Below are positions 40,691-54,397 of a stretch of 64,000 nucleotides of DNA, one piece after another. Numbering within the stretch: position 1 is the first letter of the stretch; every line of letters begins with the position of its first letter. The translations under genes and the position numbers were made by a program. The notes beneath the pieces are model-generated. The model was not told the DNA's origin. It saw only the letters and a program-made list of their open reading frames with translations, and did not search any database. Location: positions 160,001-224,000 of the forward strand of contig CAWVVV010000001.1 in assembly GCA_963933835.1 (NCBI GenBank), given 5' to 3'. Origin of the DNA: an uncultured Puniceicoccaceae bacterium. Its GTDB lineage: Bacteria; Verrucomicrobiota; Verrucomicrobiia; Opitutales; Oceanipulchritudinaceae.

Positions 40691-42838
40691 TCACTGTTCG
40701 ACAAATGAACGATAACGTTTCCGCCATTCTTTGAGTTTCTTTAGATATGCCCCAGGATCGTAGGGGCACGTCACCGGATCGAAATGTTCGAGCGGATGGG
40801 CTCGCTGCCAGTCAGCTGTCTGTCCCTTGGATCTTGGCCCGATGAAGTAGCTCACCTTGTCGCCTGATCGAGGGGTGGGTTCAATCTTGAGCGCCACTTC
40901 GAGCGACGCCCGGCGCGGCTTTCCACCTGCCGCAATCTTCTCAGCATAAGCACTTGGGTTCATACTCAGGTATTCGCTCTTAAGAAGGCGCACCACCGGC
41001 ATCGAGCTCTCTTCAATCTGCTCAGCAAAGCGCTGCCAACACGTCAGCACTGGTTCATCCTCTAACCCTAGAAGGTGCGAAATCAAGTGGTGCGTAAGAT
41101 CCTTCAGAAACGGCTCCGTTGCCCGTGATCGCAGCGCCGAACCTCTTACCCGAATCTGGTCTCCCTCACGCAGAGCATAGTTCTTCGCCTTGTAGCAAAA
41201 CATCCGCTCATAGCGGCCATCGAATTCCAGTTCGATCCCTTCGGGCAGGGTCGCTTGCGCAGCCGCTAGAAGCAACTTTGGTGCCTCGAAGTCATCGCCC
41301 GCCTGCACATAGAGCCCATCTGTGTCAGCCTCTAGGACGGAGTGGCCGTTCTCCTCAAACCAAGCAATGAGTCCCTGAAGAAGCTCCCGACCACGCAACG
41401 TCACCTCGGCCGCAAGATCTCCGTCCGCAAAACGTGCGCCTGCAAACCCCAGATACCCATAGAATGAATTGATCAGGATCTTAAAACTGTTTTGGCGCGC
41501 ATCAAACTCAGCTTTCACCGCAGGATCCGTCGCTGTCCGTGCCTTCTCCTTATACTCTAGGCGATAAGCTCGCAGCTCTTTGAGCAAAGGAATCATCGCC
41601 CCAAGACTGTCATTCACTGGGTCACGGCCGATCTGGATAAGCAGGCTCGGGTAGAGTGATGCAACGTCGAAGTGTAGGACATTTTCGAATACACCTTCGC
41701 CAAACGATTTTGAAAATCCTCCAGCAAACGGAGCTACCCCGCCCGGGATTGAGAGCGCAGCTTCACCACGGAAATACTTCTCCACCATGAGGAGATCTAC
41801 CTTTGCACCGGTACCGCGCAGCAAGGCTTCTTGGAGCAAAATCGGAAAACTCTGACACTGAGCAACGTAGGTCGGAAGAAGACGGTCTGCGAGACCGGCA
41901 GTCTCACGTAGGTCATCGGCAAGGTAACGATCAAAAGCCTCTGGGTCTTCGCGGAAGGCATCCTGGATTTTGTCTCCCGGTAGATAGGTGCGATCATCAC
42001 TCTCCGTCGTGATACCAAAATACTGAGCGGCCACCTTTAGACCATAGCTCGGCAGATCGCGCTTAGACACGTCCCAGAGCTGAAGGGCCATGAGCGTATC
42101 GACAACAGTGCGCCCTGGTATGTCGCAGCGCAAAAAATCAAGCTGTCGCTCCGCAACGCGCTGGCGACTGGATCGAAAGCGCGCGAGCTCGCCCTCACGC
42201 CCCCACGCCATTTTCACCCGGTAGCGCCGGCAGCGGGTGCGGAGATATGCCAAGTCGAAGTTAAAGATATTATGCCCCTCGATCGTGTCTGGGTCTGCCT
42301 CTTGCAGAGCCACGTCCAAGTCCTTGAGCAAGTTGAGCTCGGCAGCATCACTCTCCTCTTCTAGACGTAGAATCCGCGGCGACTCTTCATGCGAGAAACG
42401 TAGTCCAATCGCTAATACACGATCGCCCGGTCGAGTGGCATCAGGAAAATTATACGGAGGTGTTGTCGCGACTTCGATATCGAGTTGGCACCGACGCAGT
42501 TCAGAAAAGCGCATGCCGCCAAAGAGCCTCTCTCCGGAGCGTAGGAGCCATTGCTGTTCGAGCGGTTTGACCACCTCGCCAGAGCGCCCAACCGCCTTAA
42601 TCCCTTCTTTCGCCTCCGCGACGGACGAAAAATCAACGCGGCTATCGAGCTCGCCCTCGCCTGCCAAGGGCACCGCGTTCCCGGGTATCTCGGCCGCGAG
42701 TTCAGATGCGCACCAGAGAAAGGGTCTAAAGGCTGCCGTCTCAATCGACGTCGCTCCAGCGCATTCACCACGCCGAGCGACCTTCATCTGGTCGTCACTA
42801 TCAATCCATAGGCCAACGATTGGAGCCGATTCACTCAT
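40691..42838 (-). CDS. polB: Family B DNA polymerase with 3'-5' exonuclease
   Basis: LDIE, GHNIFNFD, YLADD; FDVASLYPS, KILINSFYGY, ADTDG. Confidence 0.9.
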   Translation of the reverse strand: MSESAPIVGLWIDSDDQMKVARRGECAGATSIETAAFRPFLWCASELAAEIPGNAVPLAGEGELDSRVDFSSVAEAKEGIKAVGRSGEVVKPLEQQWLLRSGERLFGGMRFSELRRCQLDIEVATTPPYNFPDATRPGDRVLAIGLRFSHEESPRILRLEEESDAAELNLLKDLDVALQEADPDTIEGHNIFNFDLAYLRTRCRRYRVKMAWGREGELARFRSSRQRVAERQLDFLRCDIPGRTVVDTLMALQLWDVSKRDLPSYGLKVAAQYFGITTESDDRTYLPGDKIQDAFREDPEAFDRYLADDLRETAGLADRLLPTYVAQCQSFPILLQEALLRGTGAKVDLLMVEKYFRGEAALSIPGGVAPFAGGFSKSFGEGVFENVLHFDVASLYPSLLIQIGRDPVNDSLGAMIPLLKELRAYRLEYKEKARTATDPAVKAEFDARQNSFKILINSFYGYLGFAGARFADGDLAAEVTLRGRELLQGLIAWFEENGHSVLEADTDGLYVQAGDDFEAPKLLLAAAQATLPEGIELEFDGRYERMFCYKAKNYALREGDQIRVRGSALRSRATEPFLKDLTHHLISHLLGLEDEPVLTCWQRFAEQIEESSMPVVRLLKSEYLSMNPSAYAEKIAAGGKPRRASLEVALKIEPTPRSGDKVSYFIGPRSKGQTADWQRAHPLEHFDPVTCPYDPGAYLKKLKEWRKRYRSFVEQ

Positions 42839-42903: not shown

Positions 42904-43443
42904 TCAAGATGAAACGTAGTCGCTAAACTCATACATTGCGGGGTCTCATTCGGGCGCTTGACGTTTTTTCAACCAGCGTGAGACGCGCTCCTTCGCTCCA
43001 CCTTCACCACTCTCTGCCCCATCCCCGAAGACATCATCTCCATCCCCGTCGAGGATGTCGCCATACTGTTCTTCGAGCTTCTCGGGATCTTCGCCTCGTT
43101 CAAGACGTTCGACCATCTCTCGCATTGGGCCCGGTAGCTTTTCGCCCGTTAGATCACTCATCCGGCGCATGAGCTGTCCGAGTTGGCGTGGATCTGGGTT
43201 CTCTTCGTCGATGCCTCCCATCTCACTTTCAAGTTGGGCCATCGCAGCCTCCATTTTCGGATCATCAGAGTCAGCGTCGCCCTCTTCTCGACCTGTCGTA
43301 ACAGCGAAACTTGAGACCTGGCGCTCCATGAGCGCCTTCGGGTCATCGGGGCAGCGTGGCGTCTTGTCGGTCGAGCTGAGACTACGAGCGAAGAAGCTGT
43401 AGATCTTGTGCGTATCAGGGGAGTAAAACTCGTAGATCGGCAT
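42904..43443 (-). CDS. FmdB-like zinc-ribbon regulatory protein, probable premature TGA at 42946-42948
   Basis: MPIYEF start, acidic helical domain; frame continues APE*DPAMYEFSDYVSS*. Confidence 0.65.
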
Positions 43444-43472: not shown

Positions 43473-43994
43473 CTAGCGCAACCCACCTTGTTGAAAAATC
43501 GTCGCAATAGGCAGGAAGAGCGCAATCACGATGGTCCCGACGATTACGGCAAGAAGGACGATCATGATGGGCTCAATCATGGCGGTCAGGCCGGAGACAG
43601 CTGTATCCAGTTCTTCCTCATAGGTATCAGCGATGCGCTCGCACATTTCACCGAGCTGACCCGTTTCTTCCCCTACCTCGACCATACTCGGAACAAAGGC
43701 GGGGAACACTCCGGAGCGCTCTAGCGGGCGGGCCAAGGTATCACCATCTTTGACTCGCTCACGGACGTCATCGAGCGCCCGTTGAACAACCGTCTGCCCG
43801 ACGACATCTCGCGATATTTGAAGCGCATCCAGAAGAGGCACCCCACTTTCGAAAAGCGTTCCAAAGGTGCGAGCAAAACGGCTCACGGCGAGTCGCTGGG
43901 AAAGTCCTTTGGCCAGCGGTAGACTAAAGACCAAGCGATCCCAAAGCTCCTTGCCGACTTTACTCCGAAGAAAGGACTGACCGCCGACAATCAA
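43473..43994 (-). pseudogene. C-terminal half of a PilC/GspF platform protein
   Basis: RFARTFGTL..SGVP, MVEVGEETG.L, IEP, IALFLP; in-frame TAG four codons upstream; first T2SSF domain absent. Confidence 0.8.
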
Positions 43995-45309: not shown

Positions 45310-46544
45310 ATGTTTTTACAAAATCCCCTCCCTGCCTTCCTGCGTCTTATGACCTCTTCCCAGGGTGTCGTCCTTGCAAGCATCTGCTTGCTCCCATGCC
45401 TGCTCAACGCGCAGTTCACGACGGCAAGCAACGCAACTGGGCTCACGATCACTAGTTACACCGCTGGGGGTGCTAACGTCGTCATCCCAGCCACAATCAA
45501 CGGGCAGGCGGTGACGGGAATCGGAGGAGACGCCTTCCGGGAGAATTTAAATATTACGAGCGTTACCATTCCCAATTCAGTCACTTCTATTGGGGTCCAA
45601 GCCTTTTTATTCTGCAGCAATCTTGGCAGTGTCACGATTGGTAATAGCGTCGAATCAATCGGCAGTGCGGCGTTTTTAGGCTGCACCAGCCTGAATAATG
45701 CAGTGCTTCAAATAGCCTAATAACGATCGGCGACCTCGCTTTCCGTGAGTGTTCCAGCCTAACGAGTATCGTCATACCAAACAGCGTTACGACAATGGGA
45801 GATCAAGTATTCTCCACGTGTAGTAATCTCGCCACCGTAGTTATCGGTGATAAGGTCGAAAGCATTGGCGAGTTTGCTTTTCATAGCTGTGTCAACATGA
45901 GCTCGGTCACCTTCGGCAGCAGCATCACAAGTATCGGTAAACTTGATTTCTTCGACTGCGATTCACTCACTGTCGTAGCGCTCCCAGATAGTGTCACCTC
46001 GATCGGTGAAAGCGCATTCAATGACTGCTCGAACCTCATCAATATCTCGACGGGTGAAAGTTTGGTCGATGTCGGTGATGCTGCCTTCAATCTTTGCACC
46101 CAACTTCAAACCGTCACATTTCCCGCCACCCTTGAGACGATCGGTGAATCTGCTTTCGCCTTCTGCGTGAATCTCGATAAAATTTATGCCGCCGGTAACG
46201 CTCCCGCTTTCAACGAATTCAACACCTTTGCTGGAGCGGAAGCCGCAACCGTCTACTACTTCGCCGACACGAGCGGCTGGGGACCACTCCTCGGCACCCT
46301 ATCGACGGAAGTGCTCCCAGAAATCGTCACCACCGATGGCAACTTCGGAGTGAGCAACAATGAGTTTGGCTTTACCGTTGTCGGGGATGCAGGACAGGAA
46401 GCAATCGTCCAAGTGAGCACAGACTTTGTCTCCACGAGCTGGGTCGAAGCAGGTCGGATCGTTTTAACGAATGGCTCCGGTTTCTTCGTTGATGCCAACT
46501 GGACCGCGCTGTCTGGCCGCTACTACCGCATTGTCTGGCCTTAA
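45310..46544 (+). pseudogene. BspA-type LRR_5 surface protein, frameshifted near 45709
   Basis: IP.SVTSIG..AF..C..L repeats continue across a 1-nt deletion (CTT CA AAT AGC CTA ATA ACG ATC GGC). Confidence 0.85.
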
Positions 46545-46570
46545 AGAGGGATCAGCGAGGTCTTAGGCAC

Positions 46571-47704
46571 TCAGCTAGAAGGCGTCTCATCGTCCTCTTC
46601 CCCAACATACATGCAGTCGCGATATTCATCAGCTGAATAGGCAGACTGTCCCCAGTGCCATGTATCCAAGTCATACCAATGCTCTGCGCCAATTGTCATA
46701 TCGAGGATATCGCCGGCCTTTAAGTCGATTTGCTCTGTGCGTAAGACACGATAGCCCCAATGGGGTGCTCGCCCCGAATCGATGGGACTCGTTGAGAGGA
46801 CGAGGTCCTCATCAACGATCGCTTTGAAATATACGGCATAGCCATCCATTCGGCCCGCTTTCACGACCGCTGAAGCTAGGCTCATTTCGAGCGGCAGCTC
46901 ATTCTCACGCAGCGTATGTAGATCGAAGCTGAGGAGTGGGACAGGATCGCAGAGAAAGTGCTCAATGAGAGACTGATCCGTCTCGGGAAACACGTAGTAG
47001 CCAGCATCTTGTGCCTGCTTATCTTTGAGCGGACTAAAATCGAAACCCTCGACGTTGAGCTCCCAGATATAGGGGACGACTCGGCTATCCCTAATTTGAA
47101 TCGGCTCACAGTAGAGCTCGAACCGGGCGGGTAAGATTCGACCACCCTCTTTGAGCAAGCGGTCGCGAAGATCCGTGACATTCGCCACCATATCCTCGTC
47201 AAAAAGGATGTCTCCCATCTGCTCGTGAAGGATGACGTCGACCCGCTCATCGAGCTTGAAGTCCTTACTGTGAATGTCGTGAAACTGAACCCCTTCGATA
47301 CCATTGTGCGCAGCGAGGGCTCTCGCGTGCTCGATGATATCAGAGTGATCTAGGGCGTGGATCTGCGATGCCTTTTGCCACGAAGCGAAGGCGGAGAGAA
47401 TACCTGTGCCCGTCCCCAGATCGATCACCCTGTCACCCTCATGAATGTGCCTCCGAATCATCTCCCGGTAGAAATTCATCCGCGGTTTATCCGCTAGCAT
47501 CTGCTCCTGCTCACCAAACTGAGCAAAGACCCGCTTATTGTTCTCCGGATAGGGGTCTTTCTTTTTCGGAAGCTCTAAGAGGTCTTCCTCTTCGATATAG
47601 GCTCGGCGCTTCTTGGCCTTAAAGCCTTTCTTCTTTTCCCGAGCAAAGCCATCGGCCGCATTGGCCGAGTTTTTATCAGACTTCTTTTTAGATGAGTGCG
47701 CCAT
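46571..47704 (-). CDS. Protein arginine methyltransferase (PRMT)-like SAM-dependent methyltransferase
   Basis: EQMLAD..R...Y, VIDLGTGTGIL, VDVILHEQMGDILFDEDM (double-E loop), LKEGG.ILP, NVEGFDFS, STSP...PHW. Confidence 0.85.
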   Translation of the reverse strand: MAHSSKKKSDKNSANAADGFAREKKKGFKAKKRRAYIEEEDLLELPKKKDPYPENNKRVFAQFGEQEQMLADKPRMNFYREMIRRHIHEGDRVIDLGTGTGILSAFASWQKASQIHALDHSDIIEHARALAAHNGIEGVQFHDIHSKDFKLDERVDVILHEQMGDILFDEDMVANVTDLRDRLLKEGGRILPARFELYCEPIQIRDSRVVPYIWELNVEGFDFSPLKDKQAQDAGYYVFPETDQSLIEHFLCDPVPLLSFDLHTLRENELPLEMSLASAVVKAGRMDGYAVYFKAIVDEDLVLSTSPIDSGRAPHWGYRVLRTEQIDLKAGDILDMTIGAEHWYDLDTWHWGQSAYSADEYRDCMYVGEEDDETPSS

Positions 47705-47731
47705 GGATAAGGGTCTAAGTAATCGTATGAA

Positions 47732-48679
47732 TTAATTCACTACGTTCAGGACAGCTTCAATCTCGCTGCGCTTGGGCGCAGATAGTTGAGCACCGGGAAC
47801 CGTCACCGAGTGGGCGGCAGCAGCATTCGCAAAGCGGACGGCATCTTTCAAATCGCTTCCCTCCGCTAGGGCAACCGCGAGAGCCCCATTGAACACATCC
47901 CCTGCTGCCACTGTATCGACGGCGGCGACTGCAAATGCAGGGACTAGATAGCATCCATCAGCCTGCGACACGAAAGCCCCTTGATCACCAAGGGTAAGAA
48001 CGATCGTCTCGACGCCACGCTTTCGCAGGGCGGACGCAGCACGCTCGGCATCATCGACACTCTTAATAGCAATGCCTGTCAGCAGCTCCGCTTCGGTCTC
48101 GTTGGGGGTCAGGATCGAAACCATTCTCATCAACGAATCTGGGAGCGACTGGGCAGGCGCTGGGTTCAGGATAAGACGGACATTCTTCTCTCTCGCGAGT
48201 TCAGCAGCCGCCACAACGGTCTCTAGCGGCACCTCAAGCTGGAGAAGTAAAACGGAAGCCGTTTCAAACGCAGCAGCCGATGCGACCACATCGTCGGGTG
48301 AGAGCTGAGCATTCGCGCCGGACGCAACCCCGATTGAGTTTTCTCCCGTCTCTGCGACAAAGATCAGCCCGACACCTGTCGGTGTTTTAGAATCACGGAC
48401 AACAAATGATGTATCGATGTCGTCGGCCTTAAATCCTTCGAAGATTTCGTCACCATGGTGATCGGCTCCGAGACGCCCAACGAAAGTCAAATCCGCTCCA
48501 GCGCGCGCCGCCGCCACAGCTTGATTCGCACCCTTACCACCTGGACAGGTCAAGAATTCACCGCCTAAAATCGTCTCACCAACCTTCGGAATACGCTCGA
48601 GATAGATCGTCATATCCATTCCGGAACTCCCCACGACAAGGACCTTTGGTCTAGCTCCGTCAGAATGGCTCATGGGCAA
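47732..48679 (-). CDS. rbsK: Ribokinase
   Basis: GGKGANQAVAAAR, LNPAP, PNETE, DTVAAGDVFNG. Confidence 0.95.
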   Translation of the reverse strand: MPMSHSDGARPKVLVVGSSGMDMTIYLERIPKVGETILGGEFLTCPGGKGANQAVAAARAGADLTFVGRLGADHHGDEIFEGFKADDIDTSFVVRDSKTPTGVGLIFVAETGENSIGVASGANAQLSPDDVVASAAAFETASVLLLQLEVPLETVVAAAELAREKNVRLILNPAPAQSLPDSLMRMVSILTPNETEAELLTGIAIKSVDDAERAASALRKRGVETIVLTLGDQGAFVSQADGCYLVPAFAVAAVDTVAAGDVFNGALAVALAEGSDLKDAVRFANAAAAHSVTVPGAQLSAPKRSEIEAVLNVVN

Positions 48680-48745
48680 AAAGAAGTATCAATAAGCACA
48701 CTCCAGTCGACTTGAAAAGACTGCTCGTCGCGAAGATCGCAACGC

Positions 48746-49432
48746 CTATGCCTTATCCTGCTCCGGGGCAGAATCATTCCGAATATGGCGGGCATCTTCT
48801 GCTGTTTTGAAGTAGATCACTTCCTCGGCCAAGTTCGTCGAATGATCGGCAATGCGCTCGATAGACTTACTGATAAAGATGAGGTCGATACAGCTATCGA
48901 TATCGTCAGGGTCATTTTTCGCAGTTTCGATGATGGCGCGAATGTTTGCTTTGTTCAGTTTATCGACGGCAGCGTCTTCGTCGAGAATGGCACGTGCACC
49001 CTTAGCATCCTCATTGATGAAACAGAGGAGCGCACGATTGATCATGTCGAGCGCTTGATTCGACATCTTCTCGAGCTTGTAAAATTCCTTTTGGACACCC
49101 TTACGATTTAAGATGCGGCGGGTCTTTTTAGCGATGCTCTTAGCTTCATCTCCGACGCGTTCGAGGTCATGTGAGGCCTTAATCGCAACCGTAATGATCC
49201 GCAAATCTGAGGCTACCGGAGAGCGAAGCGTAAGGTATCGTGTCGCCTCCAAATCGATCGTGAGCTCGAGGTCATCGATTGCGTAGTCTGCAGCAATGAC
49301 GGCTTCTGATAGCATAATCTCATTTTCGAGAAAGCCTCTCATTGCCTTGCGCACGGCTTCAACGGCCAAAGAACCCATCAGGGTAATATGTGAGCGAAGG
49401 GTTTCTAGTTCAGAATGAAAATATCGATCCAC
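48746..49432 (-). CDS. phoU: Phosphate signalling protein PhoU
   Basis: PVASDLR, DLERVGD, ERIADH..N.AEEV. Confidence 0.95.
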   Translation of the reverse strand: MDRYFHSELETLRSHITLMGSLAVEAVRKAMRGFLENEIMLSEAVIAADYAIDDLELTIDLEATRYLTLRSPVASDLRIITVAIKASHDLERVGDEAKSIAKKTRRILNRKGVQKEFYKLEKMSNQALDMINRALLCFINEDAKGARAILDEDAAVDKLNKANIRAIIETAKNDPDDIDSCIDLIFISKSIERIADHSTNLAEEVIYFKTAEDARHIRNDSAPEQDKA

Positions 49433-49504
49433 GTTCTAAAGGGTATGAGTTAAACATGTATTAGGTCCAAGCCTAATTCTTTCGCACTTTAATGATGAAC
49501 ACAA

Positions 49505-50293
49505 TCAACCGAAACGCCCAGTGATGTAAGCCTCGGTCTGTGGTAACTTCGGTCTCATGAAAATATCATCCGTAGGTGAATATTCGATCAATTTGCCGAG
49601 ATAGAAAAAAGCCGTGTTTTGAGAGACCCGAGCAGCCTGCTGCATATTGTGGGTAACGATGACGATGGTGAACTGATTCTTAAGCTCATGTATCAGTTCT
49701 TCAATACGACCCGTCGCAATCGGATCGAGAGCTGAGCATGGCTCGTCCATGAGGATGACCTCTGGCTTATTCGCGATCGCCCGAGCGATACAGACTCGCT
49801 GCATCTGACCACCCGAGAGGCCGAGGGCACTTTGATGGAGGCGGTCCTTCACTTCATCCCAAAGAGCGGCTCCCCGCAGGCTTTCTTCGACGATGCGATC
49901 GAGGTCAGATTTTTTCGTGCGACCGGCGACGCGCAGTCCATAGACGACATTTTCATAAATCGACTTTGGAAATGGGTTCGACTTCTGAAAGACCATCCCA
50001 ATGCGCTTACGCAGCGAAATAACTTCCAAAAGTGGATTGAAAACACTTTCGCCATTGATCCGTATATCACCCTTTGAATTGGCTCCATCGATGAGGTCAT
50101 TCATACGGTTGATACTGCGCAAAAGAGTCGATTTTCCACAACCAGAGGGGCCAATGAAGGCCGTTACTTGCTCCTTTGGAATATCGAGGTTGATATCATA
50201 GAGAACTTGGTTCTGCCCATAGGAGAAATCGAAGTTCTCGATTTGGATGAACGTCTCCGAGTCTGAAGCGGTATTTGAGGAAGTCGGTTCCAT
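49505..50293 (-). CDS. pstB: Phosphate ABC transporter ATPase
   Basis: [40 protein letters not shown]. Confidence 0.97.
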
Positions 50294-50297
50294 GATA

Positions 50298-51941
50298 TCA
50301 GAAAGTGCTACTGGTGTATTTGCGACGGAGGCGATTACGGATGATGATCGCGCCAAGATTCATCACAACGACAAGAGCAATGAGGAGCAATGTAGTGGCG
50401 AAAACGATCGGGCGGGCGGCCTCAGAGTCCGGGGATTGAAACCCTAAGTCATAGATATGAAAACCGAGGTGCATGAATTTGCGCTCAAGGTGAGCAAAGG
50501 GGTATTCACCATCGAGAGGAAGGCTCGGAGAAAGCTTTACCACCCCAACGAGCATGAGCGGTGCGACCTCCCCTGCCCCACGGGCCATCGCCAGGATAAG
50601 ACCGGTAAGAATCCCTGGCGTCGATACGGGAAGGACAATACGCAGAATCGTCTGCCACTTAGAAGCACCACAAGCGAGAGAGGCATCGCGCACGCCTTGG
50701 GGAACTGAAGCAAGGGCTTCCTCGGTCGCGACAACGACGACCGGCACCGTCATTAGGGCCAAGGTCAAGGACGCCCAAAGAATGCCTCCGGTTCCAAAGG
50801 TCGCGGTTGGCAATTCATTACTAAATAAAAGCTGATCGAGGGTTCCGCCAACGAAGTAGACAAAGAACCCGAGGCCAAAAACGCCAAAGACGATCGATGG
50901 CACACCTGCCAAATTGTTCACCGCGATACGCACACCCCGAACAAAAAGCCCCTGCTTAGCATATTCCCTGAGATAGATGGCCGCCAAGACACCAAAAGGC
51001 ATCACCGCGGCACTCATCAGAACGGTCATGACAAAGGTTCCAAAGATAGCAGGGAAGATGCCTCCTTCGGTGTTCGCCTCACGTGGACTGTCGCTGAGAA
51101 AGCGCCAGATTTCAGCGAAGAAAAATCCTATTTTTTGGAAGAGACCCAACTGGTTGGGTTGGTGGACCCGAATGAAATCTCCGAGCACTTGGCTTCGAAC
51201 TTCACCCGACGGAAGTCGGAAACTCAGACTGCCCACCTTCTGTTTATTACGCAGTTGGCGCGCTTCCGTTGCGAGGACCTCATAGTCTACCTGAAGGGCA
51301 TCGATTCGTCCATTAATCGATTCAATTGAAGCACTGTCACCTTCTGTCTCCAAGCCACGTAAACGCTGACGCAGAGATTTCATCTTATGGTTAATCTTCC
51401 CGATCCGCTTTTTCTCCAATTTACGGATGGCTACACGACGATCATTAACGCTATCGAGAGCGGCTTCCAAGCGGACAACGAAATCAGCATCATCAACCAA
51501 GACCGCGGCGCCCTGCTCGGTCTTAAGCTCCAATGGATAAAAAATCGCGTCACCATACTCCATCCGCTCAGCGACAAAGATGTTTGCAGGGTTACTTACT
51601 TCTAAAATATCAGCCTCGTCGATGTAGTGAAACATCATCCCATAGGTATCTTTATTACCTACAAAGAGCTGCCATTCTTCACCGATCGCATTAGTTTTTG
51701 CCTGCTTCTTAGCAATTGAACCGGCAAGGACGCTACTCCCACTCAAGGCATATTGAGAATCTTCACGTAGTTTAATTTCCACTACAGGGTGTGGCCAAAA
51801 CACGGTAATCCCTTGCCAGAAGACAATCCCCAGCAGGCCGATAACCATGAGAATCCCTGTAGCGAGACCTGCCGCAGCGAGCCATACTTGAACCTCTCCC
51901 TTCGGGCGGGCCTTAAAATCGAACTGAGTCTTTGATTCCAT
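50298..51941 (-). CDS. pstA: Phosphate ABC transporter permease (extended form)
   Basis: [36 protein letters not shown]. Confidence 0.95.
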
Positions 51942-51961
51942 TGGAAAACGTAGTGGTCAGA

Positions 51962-54247
51962 TCAACCAGACACCTTGTAACGATCACGGAGCTTTTGGCG
52001 GAGGAGTTCGGCCAAGGTATTGATCGTGAAAGTGAGAACAAAAAGAACGAAGGCTCCAAGGAACAGGGTGCGATAAAGAGTGCCGCCATGCGGTGCTTCA
52101 GGAAGTTCGACTGCAATATTGGCCGAAAGGGTCCGCATGCCGGTGAAGATATTCACATCCATGATCGCGGTATTCCCAGTCGCCATCACTACGATCATCG
52201 TCTCTCCGACGGCTCGGCCGAGGCCGATGATCAAAGCAGAAAAAATGCCTGCGGCAGCCCCTGGCAAGACGACCCGCATCGTTGTTTGCCAACGACTAGC
52301 ACCCAGCGCAAGGGAAGCTGAAACAAGATTTCTCGGGACGTTGGATAGTGCGTCCTCGGCGATGGTGAAGATAAGCGGAATGACGGCAAAACCCATCATG
52401 ATCCCGACGACGAGCGAATTACGCTGTTGGTAGCTTTCACCCGAAAACTGTGACCACCAGAGTCTAAAGTCTGCGGTCTTCGTCCCCGTCGCTGGATCGA
52501 CTACGTTGAAGACAAGGCCTTCGAAAGCAGGTCCAAGTTTCCAACCCACCCAGCCAGCAACAAGCAAGATGGGTAAGAAAACAACGAATTCTGAACCCGA
52601 GGGAATAAGGACACGGATGTTAACGGGAAAACGATTCCAGATGTAGCCGACAAGGCTCGCCGTTCCGACGATGGCAACGATGAGGAGAATGAATGAAGGC
52701 ACCTGATTATCTAAAATCGGGGCGAGCCAGAGGGCTCCTAAGAAGCCCAGCACGACCGAGGGCAATGAAGCCATAATCTCCATCGTCGGCTTGATCACTT
52801 GTTTCAAACCAGGGCGCAGAAATTGTGAGGTATAAATTGCGGCGAGGAGAGCAATCGGCACGGCAAATAGCAATGCGTAGAAGGTGCCCTTTAGCGAACC
52901 ACTGATGAGGGGGATGAGAGACAGCTTCGGCTCGAAGTCGTCCGTGCCGCCAGTTGATTGCCAGGTGTATTTCGCTTTTCCCTGCCCTTCATACCAAATC
53001 TTGCCGAAGAACGCCCGGATGCCGGCCTCAGGATGAGGGTCATCAAGCACTGATATCTCAAGTTCACCCTCTTGAGATAAGACGAGGATTCGGTCGTATT
53101 TCTCACCGATGAGCATGTCCGCGAGAGGAGCGTCGAGGGTGCGCTGCCAGCGGACTTTTTCCGTCGTGGCATAGCGCAATGAGAGCTCGGCACCGTCGGT
53201 GACAAGATAGGCCTTATTTCGAATACTCGCCTTGAAATTAGTCGCACCCGTGGAGAGCGCAACGAGGCTCTTTGTTTGCACGAATTGCAGTCCCTTCTCA
53301 GGAGATGGCGTCAAACTGAAGATGGCGTTCTCACCCGTTGCCGAAGTCAGGTTTAGTGAAACGGCCCCTTGCAGAAAATGCATCGAAGCAAGCGTCCCCT
53401 CAGGGAATGGCTGGAAGAGCTGCTCAAGCGTCCAGACACTACCCGCTTGGCGGAAGTAGGCGATGCGGTCATCTACGAGGCGGGCGACGAGCTCTTGCCC
53501 ACCGGTGCCAATGAGCAAATCGACCGGCTCAGAAGGCAGGCTATCGGTGAGGTCGAAAGTCTTATCCTGCTTAAAGGTCCCTGCCCCAAAAAGACTTCGC
53601 TTGCGGACATAGGTGACGAGTTGAAGGGTGCTCACTCCACTCAGTGCATCTTTAGCTATGACCCCCACCGTGCGCCGAGAATCGCCGGTATTAAAGGAGA
53701 TCGCTTCGATCGCTCCCTGCCCTGATGGGTGCGGAGATGCCGCTTTAACGGAGGATGTAACGGTCCGAGCAGCGTCAGGAGCAAAGATTGGCTTGTATGT
53801 AACTGAGACTAAAACGGTGCGACCGTCGCTACTGCCAAGGAGGAGCTCCTGATCCGTTTGATGATAGTCCCATGAATGAATTTTAAAATCTGCCGGGATG
53901 GGGAGGGAAGCGGTTTCTGTCGTGCCCCCCGCTACATCGACCCATGTGATGTCTCCGCCAGCCGAGATGATGAATGGGCGCTCGGTCCACTCGTCTGATC
54001 CGAGAATTATAGGATCGGCAATATCCGTCCGAATTTCCGTCAACGGGCGCACCGACGGTGCCTGAAAGAGCGGAAGGACTTCGGCAAAGATGAAAAAACA
54101 GATCCCAAATACGGCAAGGATGACTCCAACGCCTCCTACGACAATAAATCGGCCCATTAGCCGATCCATCCTCAATATGCCTTTCGAAACCGAAAAACGA
54201 TTGGGATCAAGCTCTCTAGGTTGATTCGATGGAGATTCGGAATCCAT
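51962..54247 (-). CDS. pstC: Phosphate ABC transporter permease with large periplasmic domain
   Basis: WQSTGG.DDFEPK.SL.PL, KPTMEIMASLPSVVLG, GRAVGETM. Confidence 0.93.
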   Translation of the reverse strand: MDSESPSNQPRELDPNRFSVSKGILRMDRLMGRFIVVGGVGVILAVFGICFFIFAEVLPLFQAPSVRPLTEIRTDIADPIILGSDEWTERPFIISAGGDITWVDVAGGTTETASLPIPADFKIHSWDYHQTDQELLLGSSDGRTVLVSVTYKPIFAPDAARTVTSSVKAASPHPSGQGAIEAISFNTGDSRRTVGVIAKDALSGVSTLQLVTYVRKRSLFGAGTFKQDKTFDLTDSLPSEPVDLLIGTGGQELVARLVDDRIAYFRQAGSVWTLEQLFQPFPEGTLASMHFLQGAVSLNLTSATGENAIFSLTPSPEKGLQFVQTKSLVALSTGATNFKASIRNKAYLVTDGAELSLRYATTEKVRWQRTLDAPLADMLIGEKYDRILVLSQEGELEISVLDDPHPEAGIRAFFGKIWYEGQGKAKYTWQSTGGTDDFEPKLSLIPLISGSLKGTFYALLFAVPIALLAAIYTSQFLRPGLKQVIKPTMEIMASLPSVVLGFLGALWLAPILDNQVPSFILLIVAIVGTASLVGYIWNRFPVNIRVLIPSGSEFVVFLPILLVAGWVGWKLGPAFEGLVFNVVDPATGTKTADFRLWWSQFSGESYQQRNSLVVGIMMGFAVIPLIFTIAEDALSNVPRNLVSASLALGASRWQTTMRVVLPGAAAGIFSALIIGLGRAVGETMIVVMATGNTAIMDVNIFTGMRTLSANIAVELPEAPHGGTLYRTLFLGAFVLFVLTFTINTLAELLRQKLRDRYKVSG

Positions 54248-54397
54248 AGTGGGTTCAACAGTTCGGCTAAGGCAATGGGTTGATCTACCAAGGACAAGTC
54301 TGGAAAAAAGAAAGTGGTCGACGGAACCGGCCACTTGCTCAAAAAACCACGTTCCTAGAGCTACGTAAGAGGCTCAATGAAACCCGTGAGTAAAACC

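What the first reader, a model, noticed from the sequence alone, without database searches (positions are those of the whole stretch)
46571..47704. Intact eukaryote-type protein arginine methyltransferase in a bacterium
Seen: the 377-aa ORF follows the PRMT1 layout along its whole length. FAQFGEQEQMLADKPR matches YAHFGIHEEMLKDEVR, motif I is DLGTGTGIL, and the double-E loop EQMGDILFDEDM matches EWMGYCLFYESM. The dimerisation arm W..NVEGFDFSPLKD matches WENVYGFDMSCIKD, and STSP...PHW matches STSP..YTHW. PRMT1 motifs are recalled from memory. Established: this Rossmann + arm + beta-barrel architecture defines PRMTs, which are characterised almost only in eukaryotes, and PrmA lacks these elements. 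Both Met residues linked to type I product specificity appear retained, while the N-terminal YFxxY motif is missing. Inference: an uncharacterised bacterial arginine-methylation enzyme acting on its own or host proteins. It is intact while neighbouring accessory genes decay, which suggests selection.
Basis: partly seen in the sequence, partly recalled or inferred. Interest (0 to 1): 0.82.

Follow-up and report, generated by a model that had tools for sequence, protein, structure and literature searches.

The report
Bacterial PRMT-family arginine methyltransferase gene
This intact gene in a marine verrucomicrobial genome encodes a real relative of the eukaryotic protein arginine methyltransferases, but it belongs to a large, untested prokaryotic branch of that family rather than being a one-off eukaryotic import.

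Summary
It is a true PRMT-family protein. The best PDB sequence hits are PRMT2/1/8/6/3 at E 4e-25 to 1e-21, Pfam PRMT_C scores above its cut-off, and the AlphaFold model matches PRMT3/6/2/1 at TM up to 0.81 over 314-346 columns. The two double-E glutamates, both type-I methionines, the His-Trp loop and the SAM-binding residues are invariant in 24 bacterial relatives. It is not PrmA.

It is not unique. There are 123 50%-identity clusters at E<=1e-30, relatives occur in many prokaryotic phyla and some archaea, and JGI already labels many of them PRMT1. The tree groups by phylum, so this is not a recent eukaryotic import. The gene is patchy: 11 of 401 phylum genomes have it.

No conserved neighbour was found. 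GAR-tract proteins in the genome, including uS5, are plausible substrates, but a co-occurrence test was negative. Verdict: new member of a known kind. The biochemistry is untested, and I found no paper on this branch.

The parts
46571..47704 (-). Complete PRMT-family gene, 377 codons plus stop (stop codon 46571-46573)
   Evidence: ORF list; PDB phmmer hits to PRMT2/1/8/6/3; Foldseek hits to PRMT structures
47564..47704 (-). Residues 1-47: Lys-rich N-terminal tail, predicted disordered. K+R is 31% over the 51 residues that precede the conserved core.
   Evidence: pLDDT below 50 over residues 1-47. The tail is shared only with the two closest relatives P0002 and P0003. Other verrucomicrobial homologs carry an LQRLS..RPRLAAW segment instead.
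47447..47551 (-). Residues 52-86: N-terminal helices that cover the SAM pocket in PRMTs. They hold the family-invariant Y52-x3-N56-x3-F60 (where eukaryotes have YFxxY), M69 and R75.
   Evidence: Helices 52-60, 63-71 and 73-86 in the model; invariant columns; alignment to PRMT1 8dur
47120..47446 (-). Residues 87-195: class I Rossmann SAM-binding domain, including motif I DLGTGTGIL (95-103, nt 47396-47422) and the acidic post-I residue D119
   Evidence: Pfam Methyltransf_31 over 87-195 and Methyltransf_25 over 93-188; D95, G97, G99, G101 and D119 invariant
47189..47227 (-). Residues 160-172: double-E loop HEQMGDILFDEDM, with E161, E170 and M172
   Evidence: Aligned to SEWMGYFLLYESM of PRMT1 8dur; H160, E161, Q162, M163, G164, D165, E170 and M172 invariant in 24 sequences
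46691..47116 (-). Residues 197-338: PRMT_C region, meaning the beta-barrel with the inserted dimerisation arm (arm roughly 205-245, nt 46970-47092)
   Evidence: Pfam PF22528 at 32.7 bits over 197-338; strands and two short helices (224-229, 234-237) in the model; Foldseek alignments of 314-346 columns to PRMT3/6/2/1. The arm limits are approximate.
46754..46771 (-). Residues 312-317: RAPHWG, the counterpart of the THW loop (here P-H-W)
   Evidence: Aligned to THW of PRMT1 8dur; R312 to G317 invariant
46574..46678 (-). Residues 343-377: family-specific C-terminal W343..W349xW351 strand, the Y.A.EYRDC segment shared with Puniceicoccales-type relatives, and an acidic tail
   Evidence: W343, W349 and W351 invariant, tails variable; strand 349-356 and helix 358-365 in the model
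45310..46544 (+). Context only: convergent BspA-type LRR_5 gene split into two ORFs by a 1-base frameshift near 45699-45714
   Evidence: Both ORFs hit PF13306. The repeat continues in the other frame across the junction (my reading of the sequence).
47732..48679 (-). Context only: intact pfkB-family sugar kinase. Its stop codon ends at 47732, 27 bases upstream of the PRMT start codon on the same strand. It lies downstream of phoU, pstB and two permeases.
   Evidence: Pfam PfkB at 252 bits. No promoter-like or terminator-like site was found in the 27-base gap. One RNA-library contig spans 47580-47735.

Best explanation
The gene encodes an active, SAM-dependent protein arginine N-methyltransferase of the PRMT family. 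It belongs to a prokaryotic clade most like the type I enzymes (PRMT1/2/3/6/8).

Inferred mechanism, by homology. SAM is held by motif I (D95, G97, G99, G101), by the acidic D119 and by R75, under an N-terminal helix carrying Y52, N56 and F60. The substrate guanidinium is clamped between E161 and E170 of the double-E loop, next to H315-W316. M69 and M172 shape the pocket as in enzymes that make mono- and asymmetric dimethylarginine. The enzyme probably works as a head-to-tail dimer through the arm inserted in the beta-barrel.

It most likely acts on the bacterium's own proteins. The best candidates are glycine-arginine-rich tracts of RNA-associated proteins in the same genome: the N-terminal extension of uS5, a DEAD-box helicase tail and an RRM protein tail. 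The disordered Lys-rich N-terminus may tether the enzyme to RNA or to acidic partners.

Shown here: family membership, fold, and conservation of the catalytic residues. Inferred only: activity, product type, dimerisation and substrates.
For: Sequence: 63 PDB sequences match at E<=0.01. Type I enzymes rank first (PRMT2 4.4e-25, PRMT1 7.8e-24, PRMT8 2.5e-22, PRMT6 1e-21, PRMT3 3e-20). PRMT7 (1.1e-17), CARM1 (6.5e-17) and PRMT9 (about 1e-10) follow, and no PRMT5 appears among the 60 listed. Pfam PRMT_C is above its cut-off.

Fold: the model has pLDDT 78.3 and pTM 0.73, with most 10-residue blocks of the core above 85. The best Foldseek hits are all PRMT structures: E 1.2e-23, TM 0.70-0.81 normalised by target, 314-346 aligned columns, 22-27% identity.

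Conservation: E161, E170, M69, M172, H315, W316, R75, D95, G97, G99, G101 and D119 are invariant in 24 relatives whose identity to the query runs from 82% down to 50%.

Selection and descent: relatives at 35-64% identity occur in many phyla, and the gene tree clusters by phylum.

Candidate substrates: uS5 with an RGG tract at about residues 61-109 ahead of its Pfam domains, a DEAD-box helicase with an RGG tail (393-454), and an RRM_1 protein with a GAR tail. In eukaryotes the N-terminal extension of uS5/Rps2 is methylated by Hmt1 in yeast and PRMT3 in mammals (PMC13627120, passages read).

Weak hint of expression: three contigs at least 99% alike, from two marine metatranscriptome runs of one study, lie inside the gene.
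Against: No activity, product or substrate has been measured for any member of this clade, as far as I could find.

The one substrate test I ran was negative. Five PRMT-lacking genomes of the same family (G005, G006, G008, G017, G018) have uS5 aligning from query residue 4-14, which includes the GAR extension. PRMT-bearing G204 and G045 align only from residues 95 and 115. GAR tracts therefore exist without this enzyme.

No neighbour gene is conserved across 82 loci, so context gives no clue to the substrate.

The eukaryotic YFxxY motif is replaced.

The RNA contigs could come from DNA carried over into the libraries.

A characterised bacterial arginine-guanidino methyltransferase, SznE/StzE, acts on free arginine rather than on protein (PMC11705231, passage).
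Confidence: 0.6

Rival explanations
1. It methylates free L-arginine or another small guanidino compound rather than proteins, as SznE/StzE does in streptozotocin biosynthesis.
For: A review passage describes SznE/StzE as an arginine-guanidino methyltransferase that makes N-omega-methyl-L-arginine (PMC11705231). A preprint passage reports using SznE to find a related enzyme in another gene cluster (PMC12637814). The double-E clamp would bind a free guanidinium just as well. The gene is accessory and patchy: 4 of 201 order genomes and 11 of 401 phylum genomes have it.
Against: Neither the window nor the relatives show a biosynthetic cluster. The window's neighbours are phosphate transport, a sugar kinase and an LRR pseudogene, and no neighbour recurs across 82 loci. 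The whole PRMT_C barrel and arm, which in PRMTs builds the peptide groove and the dimer, is retained and conserved. I could not compare the protein with SznE itself because no tool gave me its sequence.
Confidence: 0.12
2. It has the PRMT fold but a different acceptor (lysine, another residue or a nucleic acid), or it is a non-catalytic binding protein.
For: Identity to characterised PRMTs is only 22-27%. The N-terminal YFxxY motif is replaced by Y-x3-N-x3-F, and THW reads PHW. No member of the clade has been assayed, as far as my searches found.
Against: All residues that make a PRMT arginine-specific (two Glu, His-Trp) and all SAM-binding residues are invariant across 24 relatives. That is hard to explain for an inactive protein or one aimed at a different acceptor.
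Confidence: 0.1
3. It is a secreted effector that methylates proteins of a eukaryotic host. The Lys-rich N-terminus would act like a nuclear localisation signal.
For: Residues 1-51 are 31% K+R, with runs such as KKK and KAKKRR. The genome is small at 1.94 Mb. Bacterial methyltransferases that target host chromatin exist, and predicted Legionella PRMTs of unknown function are mentioned in a review (PMC10117894, passages).
Against: No signal peptide or secretion context was seen, and the only nearby secretion gene is a T2SSF fragment. Near-identical RNA-library contigs come from runs labelled marine metagenome. The Lys-rich tail is confined to three close relatives, while the enzyme core is conserved in free-living lineages of many phyla. 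No match was found on plasmids or phages.
Confidence: 0.05
4. About origin: the gene is a recent transfer from a eukaryote.
For: The family is best known from eukaryotes, and within this bacterial order the gene is rare (4 of 201 genomes).
Against: All 150 listed hits in the 1.84-billion-protein library score at least 119 bits, against at most 91.8 bits for any PDB PRMT. Named relatives are prokaryotic. A starred clade (SH-aLRT 99) holds 37 of the 38 rows labelled Verrucomicrobiota. The 38th, L030, is a wrongly called ORF. GC content around the gene is ordinary for the window (0.53 against 0.47-0.58).
Confidence: 0.03

Closest known systems
Type I eukaryotic PRMTs (PRMT1/Hmt1, PRMT2, PRMT3, PRMT6, PRMT8)
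   Same: The domain order is the same: N-terminal helices, Rossmann SAM domain, beta-barrel with inserted arm. Also shared are motif I GxGxG, two Glu nine residues apart in the double-E loop, Met at both positions tied to type I products, and the His-Trp loop. Fold match reaches TM 0.81.
   Different: Identity is only 22-27%. YFxxY is replaced by Y52-x3-N56-x3-F60, SEWMGY reads HEQMGD, and THW reads PHW. There are clade-specific C-terminal Trp residues (W343, W349, W351) and a Lys-rich disordered N-terminus. The host is bacterial, with no histones or spliceosome, and activity is untested.
PRMT7, CARM1, PRMT9 and PRMT5 (other eukaryotic PRMT types)
   Same: PRMT7, CARM1 and PRMT9 are also detected by sequence, at E 1e-17, 6.5e-17 and about 1e-10.
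   Different: They are weaker matches than the type I enzymes. There is no tandem duplication as in PRMT7 and PRMT9. PRMT5 does not appear among the 60 listed hits.
PrmA (bacterial ribosomal protein L11 methyltransferase)
   Same: Class I SAM-binding core. The Pfam PrmA match covers residues 83-168. NCBI has named some members of this clade '50S ribosomal protein L11 methyltransferase'.
   Different: Only the Rossmann core matches (PrmA profile positions 155-240 of 296). The prmA equivalog model scores 35.1 bits against a cut-off of 183.15. From general knowledge, PrmA lacks the double-E and THW loops and the PRMT barrel and arm.
SznE/StzE arginine-guanidino methyltransferase (streptozotocin pathway)
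   Same: It is a bacterial, SAM-dependent methylase of an arginine guanidino nitrogen (PMC11705231, passage).
   Different: It acts on free L-arginine and sits in a biosynthetic gene cluster next to SznF. No such context exists here or in relatives. I did not test sequence relatedness to the window's protein.
Predicted Legionella PRMTs and M. tuberculosis Rv1988
   Same: These are bacterial proteins that a review proposes or reports to methylate arginine (PMC10117894, passages).
   Different: Both are discussed as host-directed factors of intracellular pathogens, and the Legionella proteins are listed with unknown function. I made no sequence comparison. The window's organism shows no sign of that lifestyle.

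Membership tests
PRMT family (Pfam PRMT_C plus class I methyltransferase core) | Class I Rossmann SAM-binding domain with motif I GxGxG, an acidic post-I residue and an Arg that binds the SAM carboxylate | tested here: met
   Pfam Methyltransf_31 and Methyltransf_25 are above their cut-offs. D95-L-G97-T-G99-T-G101, D119 and R75 align to the PRMT1 8dur counterparts and are invariant in 24 relatives.
PRMT family | Double-E loop: two glutamates that clamp the substrate guanidinium | tested here: met
   HEQMGDILFDEDM aligns to SEWMGYFLLYESM. E161 and E170 are invariant.
PRMT family | THW loop (His-Trp next to the active site) | tested here: met
   PHW at 314-316 aligns to THW. R312-A-P-H-W-G317 is invariant. 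Thr is replaced by Pro.
PRMT family | C-terminal beta-barrel with inserted dimerisation arm | tested here: met
   PF22528 scores 32.7 bits (cut-off 27) over residues 197-338 and 33.6 bits in the genome search, with 0 of 14 control genomes matching. Foldseek gives TM 0.70-0.81 over 314-346 columns to PRMT3/6/2/8/1.
PRMT family | Head-to-tail homodimer through the arm | not testable with these tools
PRMT family | SAM-dependent methylation of peptidyl arginine | not testable with these tools
   This needs an enzyme assay. I found no report for this clade in ten searches, nine of them aimed at the question and one on PRMT3/RPS2.
Type I PRMT (asymmetric dimethylarginine-forming) | Met at the two pocket positions (M48 and M155 in rat PRMT1; numbering recalled) | tested here: met
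   M69 aligns to the Met of HEEML and M172 to the Met of YESM in PRMT1 8dur. Both are invariant. The product type itself is untested.
Type I PRMT | N-terminal YFxxY motif of the first helix | tested here: not met
   The aligned positions read N56-K-R-V-F60. The clade instead has invariant Y52, N56 and F60 at i, i+4, i+8 on a predicted helix.
PrmA (L11 methyltransferase) | Full-length match to the prmA equivalog model, including the N-terminal substrate-binding domain | tested here: not met
   TIGR00406 scores 35.1 bits against a cut-off of 183.15 and matches only residues 86-168.
SznE-like free-arginine methyltransferase | Location in a biosynthetic cluster with an SznF-type partner | tested here: not met
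   The window's neighbours are pst/phoU, a pfkB kinase and an LRR pseudogene. No neighbour recurs across 82 loci.
SznE-like free-arginine methyltransferase | Closer sequence relation to SznE than to protein-directed PRMTs | not tested
   No tool gave me the SznE sequence, and I did not type sequence from memory.

The most novel reading that the evidence does not exclude
Bacteria have a working PRMT-RGG system of their own. On this reading, the prokaryotic PRMT clade asymmetrically dimethylates glycine-arginine-rich tracts of RNA-associated proteins. Candidates here are the N-terminal RGG extension of ribosomal protein uS5, a DEAD-box helicase tail and an RRM-protein tail. That would mirror Hmt1/PRMT3 acting on eukaryotic uS5. 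The clade also has archaeal members, one labelled Sigynarchaeota (Asgard), so it could represent the stock from which the eukaryotic type I PRMTs arose.
Probability: 0.25. Interest if true: 0.75.

Novelty: new member of a known kind. Interest (0 to 1): 0.45.

Why it matters
As I recall it, PRMT reviews usually treat arginine methylation by PRMTs as a eukaryotic invention. This gene is a well-preserved example of a large prokaryotic branch with every catalytic residue in place. The branch has cultured members by record title: Litoribacter ruber KCTC 22899, Puniceicoccales CK1056, two Opitutaceae isolates and Methanoculleus nereidis. That makes two questions directly testable: whether bacteria and archaea use PRMT-type arginine methylation, and on which proteins. 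The same genome also holds RGG-tract RNA-binding proteins, including a uS5 whose N-terminal extension recalls the methylated extension of eukaryotic uS5. That gives concrete peptides to try first, although my co-occurrence test did not link them to the enzyme. The case matters less as a discovery in this particular window, because databases already recognise the family.

Tried and rejected
1. Conserved neighbourhood. I called ORFs in 82 loci (80, plus the window and L002) and clustered them. My caller failed to assign the PRMT ORF in 11 loci. The largest non-PRMT cluster occurs in 10 loci, and only small lineage-specific pairs recur next to the gene. No operon partner emerged.

2. uS5 co-occurrence. 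This was negative, as described in the Against line.

3. Domain fusions. Of 12 long representatives, only P0168 has an extra Pfam domain (NTP_transf_5). The other extensions have none. The 927-aa frame in L040/G402 is a spurious upstream extension of the open frame.

4. Mobility. tblastn found no match in 72,556 plasmid records or 50,697 phage records at E<=1e-10.

5. Promoter and terminator scan of 46300-49700. It found 2 promoter-like sites against 2.2 expected, none placed to serve the gene. No terminator lies between the kinase gene and the PRMT gene. The scan was uninformative.

6. Complex prediction for the homodimer was unavailable.

7. Taxon names for distant representatives. Of 20 looked up, only two clusters carried a taxon: Candidatus Raymondbacteria and Candidatus Sigynarchaeota. 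I therefore could not label eukaryotic rows or build a tree that includes eukaryotic PRMTs.

8. RNA evidence. Only three contigs of about 155 bases from one study were found. They do not prove transcription.

9. NCBIfam. No model reaches its cut-off.

10. Earlier scan notes. Nothing was on record near this place.

11. Literature. PMC7641849 (passages) turned out to be irrelevant.
Full report
**Observation.** One search lists a 377-aa ORF at 46571..47704 on the minus strand, starting with ATG. GC content around it (0.53) is ordinary for the window, which ranges 0.47-0.58.

**Family membership by sequence.**
- Against Pfam the protein hits generic class I methyltransferase models and PRMT_C (PF22528) at 32.7 bits, cut-off 27, over residues 197-338. 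The PrmA match covers only the Rossmann core, residues 83-168.
- No NCBIfam model reaches its cut-off. The prmA equivalog scores 35.1 bits against 183.15.
- phmmer against all PDB chains gave 63 sequences at E<=0.01. The 60 listed are PRMTs by name, apart from one unnamed chain. The order is PRMT2 (4.4e-25), PRMT1 (7.8e-24), PRMT8, PRMT6 and PRMT3, then PRMT7 (1.1e-17), CARM1 (6.5e-17) and PRMT9 (about 1e-10). No PRMT5 appears.
- The printed alignment to a PRMT1 (8dur) pairs FAQFGEQEQMLADKPR with ysHFGIHEEMLKDGIR, IDLGTGTGIL with LDIGCGTGIL, HEQMGDILFDEDM with SEWMGYFLLYESM, and PHW with THW.
- By the rat PRMT1 numbering that I recall, these are M48, R54, E144, E153, M155 and H293. In the window's protein they are M69, R75, E161, E170, M172 and H315.

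**Fold.** AlphaFold2 on a 24-sequence alignment gave pLDDT 78.3 and pTM 0.73. Most 10-residue blocks of the core, from about residue 70 to 360, are above 85, and residues 1-47 are below 50. Foldseek against the PDB returned only PRMT structures at the top: PRMT3 2fyt (E 1.2e-23, TM 0.79), PRMT6 5e8r, PRMT2 5fub, PRMT1 1or8 (0.78) and PRMT3 3smq (0.81). Alignments span 314-346 columns at 22-27% identity.

**Conservation.** In 24 bacterial relatives, 82% to 50% identical to the query, the invariant residues are E161, E170, M69, M172, H315, W316, R75, D95, G97, G99, G101 and D119. Three features are specific to the clade. An invariant Y52-x3-N56-x3-F60 sits on the first predicted helix where eukaryotes have YFxxY. 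The double-E loop reads HEQMGD and the His-Trp loop reads RAPHWG. Three C-terminal tryptophans are invariant.

**The N-terminus varies by lineage.** The window's protein and its two closest relatives have a Lys-rich tail, 31% K+R. Most verrucomicrobial relatives, including the one in same-genus G002, carry an LQRLS..RPRLAAW segment instead.

**How common is it?**
- The word-indexed search found 857 proteins at E<=1e-5 among 4411 candidates. The best 120 are all at least 53% identical. Where named, they come from Puniceicoccales, Oceanipulchritudo, Opitutaceae, Opitutus or Horticoccus. JGI calls many 'protein arginine N-methyltransferase 1' or 'type I protein arginine methyltransferase'. NCBI calls them class I methyltransferases or, wrongly, L11 methyltransferase.
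- The exhaustive search of 1.84 billion representatives found 6528 proteins at E<=0.001, 3240 at E<=1e-10 and 123 at E<=1e-30. All 150 listed score at least 119 bits, more than any PDB PRMT (at most 91.8 bits).
The 80 kept include, by record title, Verrucomicrobiota, Chloroflexota, Ignavibacteria, Planctomycetota, Acidimicrobiia, Nitrospira, Litoribacter ruber and the archaeon Methanoculleus nereidis.
- Of 20 distant representatives looked up, two carried a taxon: Candidatus Raymondbacteria and Candidatus Sigynarchaeota.
- PF22528 matches in 0 of 14 control genomes.

**Distribution near the window's genome.** The genome is 1.94 Mb in 10 contigs and 97% complete.
- Among the 40 nearest relatives searched, only G002 has a true homolog (60% identity). 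The other four genomes with matches matched only the methyltransferase core, at E 9e-7 to 6e-4.
- In the order, 4 of 201 genomes at least 85% complete have it.
- In the phylum, 11 of 401 have it: the window's genome, 9 of 35 in family f22, and one 28%-identical relative in f57.

**Gene tree.** I built a quick IQ-TREE of 76 rows. I dropped the 11 loci without an assigned ORF and three loci by length (L040, L053, L085). Two rows, L030 and L076, are wrongly called ORFs with branch length 10 and should be ignored. A Verrucomicrobiota clade with SH-aLRT 99 holds 37 of the 38 rows so labelled, and the 38th is L030. The window's protein sits in a starred subclade with Oceanipulchritudo and Puniceicoccales CK1056. 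This fits descent within the phylum with many losses. It argues against a recent eukaryotic origin. Nothing similar lies on plasmids or phages.

**Context.** The gene is the last in a same-strand run of two permeases, pstB, phoU and a pfkB kinase, 27 bases after the kinase. It converges on an LRR_5 gene. That LRR gene is broken by a 1-base frameshift, and the T2SSF ORF at 43473-43994 has only one T2SSF domain, where I recall full-length family members having two. Across 82 loci no neighbour is conserved, and fusions are uninformative.

**Substrates.** A scan of the genome's ORFs for RG-rich windows found uS5 with an N-terminal extension of about 119 aa holding an RGG tract. It also found a DEAD-box helicase and an RRM_1 protein with GAR tails, and Rho and PNPase with R/G-rich segments. 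In eukaryotes the N-terminal extension of uS5/Rps2 is methylated by Hmt1 or PRMT3 (PMC13627120, passages).

I tested whether the bacterial extension travels with the enzyme. It does not. PRMT-lacking G005, G006, G008, G017 and G018 have the full extension, while PRMT-bearing G204 and G045 align only from residues 95 and 115. The GAR proteins therefore remain candidates by motif only.

**Expression.** Two marine metatranscriptome runs from one study hold three contigs at least 99% alike, at 46597-46753, 47102-47255 and 47580-47735. The last crosses the start codon. This is a hint, not proof.

**Literature.** Nine searches aimed at this question found no paper on this clade. A tenth was on PRMT3 and RPS2. 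A review mentions predicted Legionella PRMTs of unknown function, and Rv1988 (PMC10117894, passages). SznE/StzE is a bacterial arginine-guanidino methyltransferase that acts on free arginine (PMC11705231 and PMC12637814, one passage each). It is the main functional rival. Subscription journals are not covered, so an existing description cannot be excluded.

**Verdict.** The claimed rarity is not. This is one intact member of a broad, database-recognised but apparently uncharacterised prokaryotic PRMT clade. I rate it a new member of a known kind, with moderate interest.

Noticed in passing
G000:C2:375897-376703 (+), outside the window: Ribosomal protein uS5 is 268 aa. It has an N-terminal extension of about 119 aa holding a long RGG/GPGRGG tract ahead of the two Pfam S5 domains. 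The extension also occurs in same-family genomes that lack the PRMT gene. It recalls the methylated N-terminal extension of eukaryotic uS5.
   Followed up: yes
G000:C6:67468-68832 (-), C6:95318-95860 (-), C1:47787-49940 (-), C1:339608-342025 (+), C6:100889-102680 (+): Five more proteins carry glycine-arginine-rich tracts. A DEAD-box helicase has a C-terminal RGG tail and an RRM_1 protein has a GAR tail. Rho has a long N-terminal insertion with a G/Q/R-rich run. A PNPase-like protein has an R/G/D-rich C-terminus, named from its sequence only, without a family scan. A 597-aa protein has no Pfam match.
   Followed up: partly
window 45310-46544 (+): A BspA-type LRR_5 gene is split into ORFs of 136 and 249 aa by a 1-base frameshift near 45699-45714. 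It is either a pseudogene or an assembly error in an A-run.
   Followed up: partly
window 43473-43994 (-): A 173-aa ORF holds a single complete T2SSF domain and abuts a pseudouridine synthase gene. I recall full-length family members having two such domains, so it looks like a remnant.
   Followed up: partly
window 50298-54334 (-): The two phosphate-transporter permease genes are unusually long, at 547 and 790 aa. Each has a large N-terminal region ahead of its BPD_transp_1 domain.
   Followed up: no
window 40691-42838 (-): A 715-aa family B DNA polymerase (DNA_pol_B plus exonuclease domain) lies next to a response-regulator gene.
   Followed up: no
P0265; L060:3921-4817: The clade has archaeal members. 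One protein is labelled Candidatus Sigynarchaeota (Asgard). One gene lies in Methanoculleus nereidis YWC-01 and groups with an actinobacterial sequence in the tree.
   Followed up: partly
L049:6001-6915: A genome bin titled Pseudomonadales carries a 51%-identical copy that is sister to the whole Verrucomicrobiota clade. This could be transfer or a mis-binned contig.
   Followed up: no
alignment A1 columns 40-95; L002 and most loci L009-L052: Most verrucomicrobial homologs share a conserved N-terminal segment (LQRLS..F.A.RR..W..RPRLAAW) of unknown role. The window's lineage has swapped it for a Lys-rich tail.
   Followed up: partly
window 42946-43443 (-): A 165-aa acidic protein starting MPIYEFYSPD has no Pfam match at E<=0.001.
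   Followed up: no
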